NCBI GenBank assembly: GCA_050747225.1
Contig: JBOGOP010000003.1
Span: forward strand, 7,893-71,892
DNA: 64,000 nt
Direction of reading: 5' to 3'
Source of the DNA: Pyrinomonadaceae bacterium
Lineage (GTDB): Bacteria > Acidobacteriota > Blastocatellia > Pyrinomonadales > Pyrinomonadaceae
Shown here in pieces: positions 5,391-5,922 of this stretch. The notes under the pieces were generated by a model. The model searched no databases, was not told the origin of the DNA, and worked only from the letters and a program-made list of their open reading frames with translations. The position numbers were made by a program, and so were the translations under genes. Position 1 is the first letter of the stretch. Each line of letters begins with the position of its first letter.

Positions 5391-5468
5391 TGGTGCGCGT
5401 GGAGAGATTCGAACTCATCATGTCGCTGATCTTAAGTCAGCCGCCTCTGCCAGTTGGGCTACACGCGC
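5391..5468 (-). tRNA. Class-I (78-nt, short variable region) tRNA with Leu anticodon UAA
   Basis: Acceptor GCGCGTG/CACGCGC, A73, CCA. Anticodon arm GCTGA-CTTAAGA-TCAGC. There is no long variable arm, and the T stem has only about 3 good pairs. Confidence 0.7.
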
Positions 5469-5482
5469 AATCAATTCTCAAC

Positions 5483-5560
5483 TGGTACTCGCGGAGGGAT
5501 TCGAACCCACACTGTACAGTTCTTGAAACTGTCGTCTCCTGCCGATTGGACTACGCGAGC
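5483..5560 (-). tRNA. Class-I (78-nt) tRNA with Leu anticodon CAA
   Basis: Acceptor GCTCGCG/CGCGAGT (G1:U72), A73, CCA. Anticodon arm ACAGT-TTCAAGA-ACTGT. The variable region is 5 nt. T arm GTGGG-TTCGAAT-CCCTC. Confidence 0.75.
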
Positions 5561-5594
5561 AATAGCATGGTGTAGAGTGACGACTCTGATAAAC

Positions 5595-5651
5595 GGGCGA
5601 CAAGGAATCGAGCGCGACTTTGGACAATGTAGTCACATTCAGCATTCGCCC
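5595..5651. repeat. Spacer repeat, copy 2 (tRNA-remnant-like)
   Basis: Direct repeat of 5314-5378 with a diverged middle segment. Confidence 0.7.
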
Positions 5652-5656
5652 GGGAT

Positions 5657-5733
5657 TGGCAGGGATGACGGGACTCGAACCCGCAAATCAGCTGATTGAA
5701 GGTCAGCTTGCTTTCCATTTCGCATTCATCCCC
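5657..5733 (-). tRNA. tRNA-Glu(UUC) with C33
   Basis: Acceptor GGGGATG/CATCCCT (G1:U72), G73, CCA. Anticodon arm (A)GCTGA-CCTTCAA-TCAGC(T). Position 8 is A. Confidence 0.75.
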
Positions 5734-5737
5734 TGAA

Positions 5738-5841
5738 AAATTCGGATTTCGGAATGCGGATTTCGGATTTGTTTCGGCGGAGGCATTCCCTTAACCCGGG
5801 GATTTGCAAATCCGCAATCCGAAATCCGCATTCCGAAATTT
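5738..5841. repeat. Heptamer-periodic inverted repeat, unit CGGATTT
   Basis: Left arm 5738-5771 and right arm 5807-5841. Confidence 0.85.
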
Positions 5842-5844
5842 GAC

Positions 5845-5922
5845 TGGTACCGGCGGAGGGATTCGAACCCACACTGTCTAGTTTCTAAAACTAGCGCCTC
5901 CTGCCCGTTGGGCTACGCCGGC
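5845..5922 (-). tRNA. Class-I (78-nt) tRNA with Leu anticodon UAG
   Basis: Acceptor GCCGGCG/CGCCGGT (G1:U72), A73, CCA. Anticodon arm CTAGT-TTTAGAA-ACTAG. The variable-plus-T region ACAGTGTGGGTTCGAATCCCTCCGC is identical to that of 5483-5560. Confidence 0.75.

What the first reader, a model, noticed from the sequence alone, without database searches (positions are those of the whole stretch)
5391..5922. Three short class-I tRNAs carrying the Leu anticodons UAA, CAA and UAG
Seen in sequence:
- Genes 5391-5468, 5483-5560 and 5845-5922 are each 78 nt, with a 5-6 nt variable region. Their anticodon loops are CTTAAGA, TTCAAGA and TTTAGAA.
- All three have A73.
- The CAA and UAG genes share an identical variable-plus-T segment (ACAGTGTGGGTTCGAATCCCTCCGC) and similar D arms, so they are paralogues that differ mainly in the anticodon arm.
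- In the same array, tRNA-Ser (87 nt) and tRNA-Tyr (88 nt) keep their long variable arms.

Established knowledge: bacterial tRNA-Leu is a class-II tRNA with a long variable arm.

Inference: either LeuRS charges these minimal species (A73 is the main Leu determinant in E. coli), or another synthetase charges them. In the second case they would recode or mistranslate Leu codons.
Basis: partly seen in the sequence, partly recalled or inferred. Interest (0 to 1): 0.8.

Follow-up and report, generated by a model that had tools for sequence, protein, structure and literature searches.

The report
Armless leucine tRNAs in tRNA array
Three real leucine tRNA genes that lack the usual long extra arm sit in a 24-gene, phage-like tRNA cluster of a soil acidobacterium; the same armless type is common in phage and mobile tRNA clusters and in Streptomyces, so they are an under-noticed but known kind rather than a sign of genetic-code change.

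Summary
ARAGORN and the Rfam tRNA model both call three 78-nt tRNA-Leu genes (UAA, CAA, UAG) with a 5-nt variable loop and A73. tRNA-Ser and tRNA-Tyr in the same array keep their long arms.

These genes are neither isolated oddities nor pseudogenes.
- The window is a Pyrinomonadaceae (Acidobacteriota) chromosome carrying a 24-gene tRNA "L-array" with an embedded rtcB and an HNH endonuclease.
- Homologous arrays occur in about 20 related species-level genomes. All 36 tRNA-Leu genes in them are short, and 17 of 20 stem pairs show compensatory changes.
- The same short tRNA-Leu design occurs in at least 145 GenBank phage records, in 34 IMG/VR contigs, and in the Anabaena PCC 7120 trn operon. It often includes the exact ACAGU loop and the GUGGG/CCCUC T stem.
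- The S. coelicolor type I tRNALeu(CAA), which is leucylated experimentally, has the near-identical loop ACAGC.

The genes keep the bacterial Leu identity set (A73, A14, A15-U48, G18G19, 3-bp D stem) and carry no determinants for another synthetase. Charging by LeuRS is therefore the likely mechanism, and recoding is not supported.

Novelty: a new member of a known kind.

Side finding: a widespread tRNA(UAU) with an added long arm.

The parts
5391..5468 (-). tRNA-Leu(UAA), type I. It has a 5-nt variable loop (GACAU), a T stem with a 1-nt bulge, G1-C72, A73 and an encoded CCA.
   Evidence: ARAGORN; RF00005 at 44.6 bits with alignment; parse. The bulged form is conserved in L005, L006 and L011, whereas the L008 orthologue has a perfect stem.
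5483..5560 (-). tRNA-Leu(CAA), type I. It has variable loop ACAGU, T stem GUGGG/CCCUC with a U50.U64 mismatch, G1.U72, A73 and an encoded CCA.
   Evidence: ARAGORN; RF00005 at 52.2 bits; parse.
5845..5922 (-). tRNA-Leu(UAG), type I. It carries the same ACAGU / GUGGG-CCCUC module, G1.U72, A73 and an encoded CCA.
   Evidence: ARAGORN; RF00005 at 56.0 bits. It is 81-91% identical to annotated tRNA-Leu genes of actinophages.
133..6519 (-). tRNA L-array. It holds 24 co-oriented tRNA genes, all with an encoded CCA. The window start cuts it off: relatives continue with tRNA-Gln(UUG).
   Evidence: ARAGORN; Rfam; homologous arrays in L003-L042.
3519..4697 (-). rtcB (RNA 3'-phosphate ligase, tRNA repair) embedded in the array.
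   Evidence: Pfam PF01139, E = 2.9e-121. Orthologues lie next to arrays in Pyrinomonadaceae genomes.
1816..2448 (-). HNH endonuclease gene embedded in the array.
   Evidence: Pfam HNH_5/HNH. The same gene is found in L003 and L006. HNH genes are a described companion of L-arrays and of phage tRNA clusters.
6191..6277 (-). tRNA-Ser(CGA), 87 nt, with the long variable arm retained. It serves as an internal control.
   Evidence: ARAGORN; fold.
6432..6519 (-). tRNA-Tyr(GUA), 88 nt, with the long variable arm retained. It serves as an internal control and is the first gene of the array.
   Evidence: ARAGORN; fold.

Best explanation
The three genes are genuine leucine-accepting tRNAs of a distinct, widely dispersed lineage of type I (armless) tRNA-Leu. 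This lineage travels with horizontally spread tRNA clusters, both phage tRNA clusters and bacterial L-arrays.

Here they belong to a chromosomal L-array of a Pyrinomonadaceae acidobacterium. The array contains at least 24 co-oriented tRNA genes plus rtcB and an HNH endonuclease.

Proposed mechanism:
1. The array is transcribed as an operon and processed into individual tRNAs (inferred).
2. The host LeuRS charges the three tRNAs through A73 and the D/T-elbow architecture: U8-A14, A15-U48, G18G19-U55C56, U54-A58, and a 3-bp D stem with an enlarged D loop. Bacterial LeuRS reads neither the anticodon nor the long arm (inferred from established identity rules and from the S. coelicolor and Anabaena precedents).
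3. They then decode UUA/UUG and CUN as Leu, acting as a supernumerary back-up set alongside the housekeeping tRNAs. They probably matter when translation is stressed or host tRNAs are cleaved, which fits the linked RtcB ligase (inferred).

Leu is the only class II isotype that has lost its arm in these clusters. The likely reason is that SerRS and bacterial TyrRS need the arm whereas LeuRS does not (inferred).
For: Shown:
- Correct cloverleaves with short variable loops.
- All 36 tRNA-Leu genes (anticodons tag, caa, taa, gag, aag) in homologous arrays of about 20 Pyrinomonadaceae genomes are 74-78 nt, whereas Ser and Tyr genes there are 80-93 nt.
- Among 34 distinct sequences, 96.3% of stem cells pair and 17 of 20 pairs show double compensatory changes. 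A14, A15, T54, T55, C56 and A58 are invariant across the 43 sequences that also include the phage and Anabaena copies.
- The combination seen here is: outer 3 D-stem pairs intact, 13-22 unpaired (33/36), A14A15 (36/36), a 9-10 nt D loop, and A73 (35/36). It matches the five E. coli tRNA-Leu genes and no other E. coli isotype.
- A73 is present in 100 of 102 short Leu genes pooled from the arrays and phages.
- The same design, often with the same ACAGU / GUGGG-CCCUC module, occurs in Gordonia, Rhodococcus and Streptomyces phages, an Erwinia FelixO1-like phage, 145 phage records, 34 IMG/VR contigs and the Anabaena PCC 7120 trn operon.
- The array is present or absent at a syntenic site among relatives. 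It also lacks anticodons for 34% of Ser and 20% of Leu codons used in the window, so it is supernumerary.

From the literature:
- S. coelicolor type I tRNALeu(CAA), with loop ACAGC, is leucylated (PMC6614811).
- 23 of 26 Anabaena operon tRNAs are aminoacylated in vivo and found in polysomes, and L-arrays are linked to HNH genes and rtcB (PMC8421152).
- E. coli Leu identity is independent of the arm (PMC9976931).
Against: - There are no expression or charging data for this organism.
- E. coli LeuRS failed to charge the S. coelicolor type I tRNA-Leu, and charging there needed a particular LeuRS leucine-specific domain. Competence of the Pyrinomonadaceae LeuRS is therefore assumed, not shown.
- The window copies carry T-stem imperfections: U50.U64 in two genes and a bulge in the third.
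- Position 37 is atypical: G37 in the UAA and CAA genes, A37 in the UAG gene.
- A whole-sequence profile did not rank E. coli tRNA-Leu first: Trp scored 39.7 bits against 33.2 for Leu.
- I could not retrieve the housekeeping tRNA-Leu genes of this genome.
- The Anabaena paper does not say which 3 of the 26 genes were silent.
Confidence: 0.78

Rival explanations
1. The tRNAs are made but act mainly outside decoding. They could be decoys or sponges for tRNA-targeting nucleases and toxins, or regulatory RNAs, and may be charged poorly or not at all.
For: - L-array tRNAs have been proposed to act as sponges for toxin RNases (PMC8421152).
- Mycobacterial arrays are discussed as anti-defence elements.
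- The anticodon loops differ from housekeeping norms at position 37.
- The T stems carry mismatches.
- E. coli LeuRS did not charge the S. coelicolor type I tRNA-Leu.
Against: - The identity elements needed only for aminoacylation are strictly kept: A73 in 100 of 102 genes, and the A15-U48 pair.
- CCA ends are encoded.
- The anticodon loops stay 7 nt long, with U33 and Leu anticodons kept across many phyla.
- Anabaena operon tRNAs are charged and found in polysomes.
Confidence: 0.12
2. The window copies are decaying pseudogenes of a once-functional array.
For: - Two genes have a U50.U64 mismatch, and the UAA gene has a bulged T stem and the lowest Rfam score of the three, 44.6 bits.
- L-arrays are reported to contain a few pseudogenes.
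Against: - The U50.U64 T stem is not decay. It is conserved exactly in tRNA-Leu genes of unrelated phages and viral contigs.
- The bulged UAA form is conserved in four species.
- All other stems are intact, and all three genes score well above the Rfam threshold.
Confidence: 0.05
3. A synthetase other than LeuRS charges them, so UUA, UUG and CUA are partly recoded or mistranslated.
For: - The loss of the class II arm is the only argument.
- Precedents exist for tRNAs whose anticodon and identity disagree (nev-tRNAs, CUG-Ser; seen).
Against: - There is no G3.U70 (positions 3-70 are G-C, U-A and C-G).
- There is no G73 and no long arm for SerRS.
- C2-G71, an anti-Ser determinant, is present in 31 of 34 sequences.
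- Synthetases that accept A73 class I tRNAs read anticodons that are absent here.
- The D arm is Leu-type.
- The same tRNAs occur in phages of many hosts that use the standard code.
Confidence: 0.03

Closest known systems
Streptomyces coelicolor type I tRNALeu(CAA) (Fan et al. 2019, NAR, PMC6614811)
   Same: It is a bacterial tRNA-Leu with a 5-nt variable loop. Its loop sequence ACAGC differs by one base from the ACAGU here. U8-A14 is important in both. It coexists with class II tRNA-Leu genes and is leucylated by a bacterial LeuRS.
   Different: It is a single, essential chromosomal gene and the only UUG reader, not part of a supernumerary array. A73 was reported not to be an identity element there.
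L-arrays, e.g. the Anabaena/Nostoc PCC 7120 trn operon on plasmid delta (Santamaria-Gomez et al. 2021, PMC8421152)
   Same: It is a long co-oriented tRNA array, supernumerary, spread by HGT, and linked to an HNH endonuclease and to rtcB. I found that its four tRNA-Leu genes (taa, gag, tag, caa) are also 75-78 nt, with the same D-arm design and A73, while Ser(gct) and Tyr are long.
   Different: The Anabaena array is plasmid-borne; the array here is chromosomal, with rtcB inside it. That paper listed Acidobacteria as lacking L-arrays. Its text does not comment on the armless Leu genes. The Anabaena T arms lack the GUGGG/CCCUC module.
Phage tRNA clusters (e.g. Gordonia phage Sixama, Rhodococcus phage Francesca, Streptomyces phage Comrade, Erwinia phage Rouille)
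   Same: They carry annotated tRNA-Leu genes of 74-78 nt with D arm GCC-CAAnnGGCAG(G)A-GGC, variable loop ACAGU or UCAGU, T stem GUGGG/CCCUC (U50.U64), G1.U72 and A73. Their Ser and Tyr genes are long. HNH endonucleases and RNA-repair genes lie nearby.
   Different: They sit in virus genomes; the window shows no phage structural or integration genes around the array. Some phages mix short and long tRNA-Leu genes.
Animal mitochondrial tRNA-Leu
   Same: It is a type I tRNA-Leu charged by a bacterial-type LeuRS, with A73 and A14 as determinants.
   Different: It is an A/U-rich, structurally relaxed organellar tRNA. Nothing suggests it is related to the lineage here, and ScoLeuRS did not charge it.

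Membership tests
tRNA (Rfam RF00005) | Full-length match to the covariance model above the gathering score, with a cloverleaf of 7/(3-4)/5/5 bp. | tested here: met
   Scores of 44.6, 52.2 and 56.0 bits against a gathering score of 29, over model positions 1-71.
Canonical bacterial class II tRNA-Leu | Long variable arm (10 nt or more, forming a stem-loop). | tested here: not met
   The variable region is 5 nt in all three genes. All 36 array homologues are also short.
Canonical bacterial class II tRNA-Leu | Leu identity set outside the arm: A73, A14, A15-U48, G18G19, U54-A58, and a 3-bp D stem with 13-22 unpaired. | tested here: met
   The E. coli reference genes were fetched. The identity set is taken from PMC9976931.
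Type I bacterial/phage tRNA-Leu (S. coelicolor tRNALeu(CAA) type) | Leu anticodon combined with a 5-nt variable loop (ACAGY) and U8-A14. | tested here: met
   The CAA and UAG genes have ACAGU and the UAA gene has GACAU. The S. coelicolor loop is ACAGC.
Type I bacterial/phage tRNA-Leu (S. coelicolor tRNALeu(CAA) type) | Leucylation by the host LeuRS. | not testable with these tools
   This needs an aminoacylation assay or charge tRNA-seq.
tRNA array unit / L-array | At least 20 tRNA genes at 2 or more per kb, co-oriented. | tested here: met
   There are 24 genes in 6.4 kb, all on the minus strand. The definition is from PMC4758250.
tRNA array unit / L-array | Supernumerary, with a patchy distribution among relatives, and associated with an HNH endonuclease and rtcB. 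| tested here: met
   The array is present or absent at a syntenic site. HNH and RtcB lie inside the array. Anticodon coverage is incomplete.
tRNA array unit / L-array | Silent under normal growth and induced by translational stress. | not testable with these tools
   No expression data are available. The promoter scan was uninformative.
Recoding / identity-switched tRNA (e.g. nev-tRNA, CUG-Ser tRNA) | Identity determinants of a synthetase that does not match the anticodon. | tested here: not met
   There is no G3.U70 and no G73 plus long arm. A73, C2-G71 and a Leu-type D arm are present.

The most novel reading that the evidence does not exclude
Loss of the long arm may not be neutral streamlining. 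It may be an adaptive design of mobile tRNA-Leu genes. One module is conserved almost to the base from Acidobacteria to actinophages and enterobacterial phages: the ACAGU variable loop, the GUGGG/CCCUC T stem with its U50.U64 mismatch, and an enlarged D loop ending in GGAG. This module would re-create the LeuRS-competent elbow without the arm. It would also make the tRNA invisible to host nucleases or toxins that recognise class II tRNA shape, and immune to cross-charging by SerRS or TyrRS in new hosts.
Probability: 0.2. Interest if true: 0.6.

Novelty: new member of a known kind. Interest (0 to 1): 0.35.

Why it matters
This finding corrects a tempting over-interpretation: there is no evidence of codon reassignment.

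It also shows that the rule "bacterial tRNA-Leu is class II" fails systematically in one large compartment of sequence space. A 2023 identity review still states that tRNA-Leu has a long arm everywhere except animal mitochondria. Yet phage tRNA clusters and horizontally spread L-arrays carry a conserved armless tRNA-Leu lineage, to which the biochemically studied S. coelicolor tRNA seems to belong.

Three practical consequences follow.
- It extends L-arrays to Acidobacteria.
- It gives annotators a criterion for not flagging these genes as pseudogenes.
- It defines a compact natural LeuRS substrate, with a conserved U.U-containing T stem, that could be tested for synthetase recognition and for resistance to tRNA-targeting defence nucleases.

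Tried and rejected
- A whole-sequence profile HMM of the short Leu genes was searched against E. coli and array tRNAs, with anticodons masked and arms excised. It did not give a clean isotype assignment: E. coli Trp scored 39.7 bits, array Thr and Val about 38, and E. coli Leu 33.2. I relied instead on architecture and identity positions.
- A simple D-arm regular expression was not Leu-specific.
- blastn against PLSDB plasmids found nothing. The Anabaena array had to be fetched by accession.
No non-array tRNA-Leu lies in the roughly 40 Pyrinomonadaceae loci held.
- Larkin 2002 and Alamos 2017 are not held, and the supplements of PMC8421152 are not held. I therefore could not establish which Anabaena operon genes are the three silent ones.
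- The promoter and terminator scan of the array was no better than shuffled sequence.
- I looked for integrase or phage genes in the flanks of L003 and L006 and in the window and found none. A prophage context is therefore not supported.

Full report

Yes. ARAGORN finds 24 tRNA genes on the minus strand between 133 and 6519. Among them are tRNA-Leu(taa) at 5391-5468, tRNA-Leu(caa) at 5483-5560 and tRNA-Leu(tag) at 5845-5922, each 78 nt long with an encoded CCA.

The Rfam tRNA covariance model matches all three end to end, at 44.6, 52.2 and 56.0 bits against a gathering score of 29. It aligns them with a 5-nt variable region.

In the UAA gene the apparent sixth variable nucleotide is better read as a single bulged U inside an otherwise perfect 5-bp T stem. 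The anticodon loops, A73, and the identical 25-nt variable-plus-T segment of the CAA and UAG genes are as described. tRNA-Ser (87 nt) and tRNA-Tyr (88 nt) in the same array keep their long arms.

**2. Context**

All 24 genes are co-oriented and carry an encoded CCA. Two protein genes lie inside the array: an HNH endonuclease (1816-2448) and RtcB (3519-4697; Pfam E = 2.9e-121). The rest of the window encodes ordinary chromosomal functions.

RtcB anchors the locus taxonomically. Its closest relatives (64-95% identity) are all in Acidobacteriota / Blastocatellia / Pyrinomonadaceae MAGs, and the identical protein lies on a contig of GCA_975253635.1.

In about 20 of these species-level genomes rtcB is flanked by a homologous array of 10-34 tRNA genes. 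The array meets the published definition of a tRNA array unit (PMC4758250). It also matches the "L-array" description of Santamaria-Gomez et al. (PMC8421152): long, non-periodic, supernumerary, spread by HGT, and associated with an HNH homing endonuclease and rtcB. That paper listed Acidobacteria among the phyla without L-arrays.

Three observations show that the array is accessory.
- Closely related genomes with conserved flanks have the array, a remnant of it, or nothing between the upstream gene and rtcB (L019 vs L020, L026 vs L023, L016 vs L014/L017).
- No integrase or phage genes flank it.
- Its anticodon set cannot read AGY Ser (34% of Ser codons in 24 window ORFs) or, without superwobble, CUC (20% of Leu codons). 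Other tRNA genes must therefore exist elsewhere in the genome.

**3. The short tRNA-Leu genes are a conserved, selected lineage**

In the Pyrinomonadaceae arrays all 36 tRNA-Leu genes (anticodons tag, caa, taa, gag, aag) are 74-78 nt, while the Ser and Tyr genes are 80-93 nt. The only 87-nt tRNA-Leu genes in the fetched loci lie in non-Pyrinomonadaceae contigs.

Among 34 distinct sequences, 96.3% of stem positions pair and 17 of 20 base pairs show double (compensatory) substitutions. Across the 43 sequences that add the phage and Anabaena copies, A14, A15, T54, T55, C56 and A58 are invariant. U8 and A73 are each present in 42 of 43, and U48 in 37 of 43. That pattern reflects purifying selection on a working tRNA, not decay.

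**4. Which amino acid?**

I could not run isotype-specific covariance models. A whole-sequence profile was inconclusive. The diagnostic architecture, however, is clear.

The short genes keep the following features:
- the outer three D-stem pairs,
- 13-22 unpaired (33 of 36),
- A14A15 (36 of 36),
- a 9-10-nt D loop of the form xAAyyGGyAGA,
- A73 (35 of 36).

Among E. coli reference tRNAs fetched for all 20 isotypes, only the five tRNA-Leu genes share this combination. The D arm is thus that of a class II tRNA-Leu with the arm removed.

According to the identity review read (PMC9976931), E. coli leucine identity rests on A73, the A15-U48 Levitt pair, G18G19, A20a, and the D/T tertiary pairs. It does not rest on the anticodon or the long arm, and truncated tRNA-Leu variants lacking the arm remain active. 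C2-G71 is an anti-determinant against SerRS, and it is present in 31 of 34 sequences here.

There is no G3.U70 and no G73. The Leu anticodons exclude the anticodon-reading synthetases that accept A73.

The other isotypes of the arrays obey the canonical discriminator rules: U73 for Cys and Gly, C73 for His, G73 for Asp, Asn, Gln, Glu, Ser and Trp. The arrays as a whole are therefore built to be charged by standard synthetases.

**5. The same thing elsewhere**

blastn of the region against GenBank phages hits 250 records. The best hits are annotated tRNA-Leu genes of 72-76 nt. The UAG gene alone hits 145 records. Hosts span Streptomyces, Bacillus, Vibrio, Erwinia, Enterococcus, Pseudomonas, Mycobacterium, Gordonia, Cellulophaga and cyanobacteria. 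Most of the 60 listed hits lie on features annotated tRNA-Leu.

Specific examples:
- Gordonia phage Sixama has tRNA-Leu tag, taa and caa genes of 74-76 nt next to an 88-nt Tyr, an 85-nt Ser and HNH endonucleases.
- Rhodococcus phage Francesca, Streptomyces phage Comrade and the FelixO1-like Erwinia phage Rouille are similar.
- Several share, base for base, the D arm GCC-CAAnnGGCAGGA-GGC, the loop ACAGU (or UCAGU), the T arm GUGGG-UUCGAAU-CCCUC with its U50.U64 mismatch, G1.U72 and A73.

The exact 23-mer ACAGTGTGGGTTCGAATCCCTCC occurs in 34 IMG/VR contigs. In 33 of them it lies inside a short tRNA-Leu whose acceptor and anticodon stems are unrelated. Those loci hold 77 short and 17 long tRNA-Leu genes.

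Its U.U mismatch is a signature, not damage.

The Anabaena/Nostoc PCC 7120 trn operon also has four short tRNA-Leu genes (75-78 nt, same D-arm design, A73) beside a 90-nt Ser and an 87-nt Tyr. For that operon, 23 of 26 tRNAs were detected, aminoacylated in vivo and found in polysomes, so at least one of the four short Leu genes is charged.

Finally, the one explicit literature precedent is the S. coelicolor type I tRNALeu(CAA). Its variable loop is A44-C45-A46-G47-C48, one base different from ACAGU. It is efficiently leucylated by ScoLeuRS and by human mitochondrial LeuRS, although not by E. coli LeuRS.

**6. Mechanism**

Most likely (about 0.78), the three genes give leucine-accepting tRNAs that the host LeuRS charges through A73 and the elbow and core architecture. 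They then decode UUR and CUN as Leu and act as a supernumerary set. Alongside the embedded RtcB ligase, this set probably backs up translation when housekeeping tRNAs are depleted or cleaved.

This role is proposed by analogy with Anabaena (PMC8421152) and with the anti-defence view of phage and mycobacterial arrays (PMC10264068, PMC12803027).

Why only Leu lost the arm follows from established identity rules: SerRS and bacterial TyrRS use the arm, whereas LeuRS does not.

What is shown:
- the structures,
- their conservation and covariation,
- the identity positions,
- the distribution across genomes and phages,
- the accessory nature of the array.

What is inferred:
- transcription,
- processing,
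- charging,
- physiological role.

The rival explanations are listed with their weights in the rivals section: decoy or sponge function, decay, and recoding.

**7. Novelty and score**

Type I tRNA-Leu in a bacterium is published. L-arrays are published. Hundreds of short phage tRNA-Leu genes are annotated in GenBank. This is therefore a new member of a known kind.

Three things appear not to be stated in the literature I could search (and the paper look-ups):
- that armless tRNA-Leu is a systematic hallmark of phage clusters and L-arrays,
- that these genes share a near-invariant ACAGU / U50.U64 module with the S. coelicolor tRNA,
- that L-arrays occur in Acidobacteria.

A 2023 review still says that tRNA-Leu is long-armed everywhere but animal mitochondria.

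**8. Side observation**

The array's tRNA(UAU) (window 133-228) does the opposite of Leu. It has a class I body plus an added long variable arm, 88-96 nt in total. The arm is a 3-5-bp stem with abundant compensatory changes, capped by a conserved 7-nt loop: CAGAUAA or CAGAUUA, and once CUGAUAU.

All were called Ile(tat), with loop CAGAUUA in 83 and CAGAUAA in 14. I found no description of this in the literature.

The loop resembles a tRNA-Ile(GAU) anticodon loop (CUGAUAA). Its function is unknown, and it may deserve its own follow-up.

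Noticed in passing
window 133-228 (-); also L006 14113-14205, L007 9717-9809, L008 6743-6835, L011 6349-6441, L014 11353-11440, L015 6955-7046, L029 8258-8349; IMG/VR loci L134-L213 and beyond: tRNA with anticodon UAU (called Ile-tat) that has a class-I D arm and A73 but an added long variable arm, 88-96 nt in total. 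The arm is a 3-5-bp stem with many compensatory changes plus a conserved 7-nt loop, CAGAUUA or CAGAUAA, which resembles a tRNA-Ile(GAU) anticodon loop (CUGAUAA). No description was found in the searchable literature. The charging amino acid and the role of the arm are unknown. Nematode nev-tRNA(UAU), a V-arm tRNA charged with Leu, is a distant analogy.
   Followed up: partly
window 36-134, 237-312, 495-590, 673-769, 1350-1445, 1524-1620, 2627-2697, 2785-2866, 2949-3073, 3163-3286, 3407-3517, 5078-5235, 5746-5839, 5922-6007, 6524-6653: Almost every spacer between tRNA genes is a long imperfect hairpin with arms of 24-43 nt and 74-100% complementarity. The arms are built from short tandem repeats of about 7 nt (GGATGAA, CGGATTT, GGCAGGA, CAAGTTT, AAAGTCC). 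These gave the weak microRNA-precursor hits in Rfam. Many relatives have much shorter spacers. Possible roles are processing sites, REP/MITE-like insertions or recombination substrates.
   Followed up: partly
window 5391-5468, 5483-5560, 5845-5922, 320-393 (-): The anticodon loops depart from housekeeping norms. Leu(UAA) and Leu(CAA) have G37 where E. coli has A37. Leu(UAG) has A37 where E. coli has G37 (the m1G37 site). By my reading of the ARAGORN call, tRNA-Ile(GAU) has C33 instead of the near-universal U33. This fits the published idea that phage and array tRNAs carry anticodon-loop changes that evade anticodon nucleases (PMC10264068).
   Followed up: no
L003-L042 (Pyrinomonadaceae genomes), window 133-6519: L-arrays with an embedded rtcB and HNH endonuclease are common in Pyrinomonadaceae (Acidobacteriota), a phylum reported in 2021 to have only short accretive arrays. 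In one clade the array sits between a conserved tRNA-Pro(GGG)-proximal gene and rtcB, and it is present, reduced or absent among relatives.
   Followed up: partly
L069 3288-3364; L054 4462-4536: Near RtcB homologues in two Pseudomonadota MAGs there are two unusual genes. One is another armless tRNA-Leu(CAG) with a Leu-type D arm and A73 (L069). The other is a 75-nt tRNA with anticodon CAG, a generic class-I body and G73 (L054), which is a possible anticodon/identity mismatch.
   Followed up: no
window 784-864 (-): tRNA-Thr(UGU) is 81 nt long with an unusually large D loop. Orthologues in related arrays are 79-81 nt.
   Followed up: no
window 11704-13056 (-); L006 1055-4801 and 16028-18109: A Schlafen/AlbA_2-domain protein lies about 5 kb from the array in the window. 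Large WD40 and NACHT (STAND NTPase) proteins flank the array in L006. Eukaryotic Schlafen nucleases cleave class II tRNAs, but the bacterial AlbA_2 domain is common and no link was tested.
   Followed up: no
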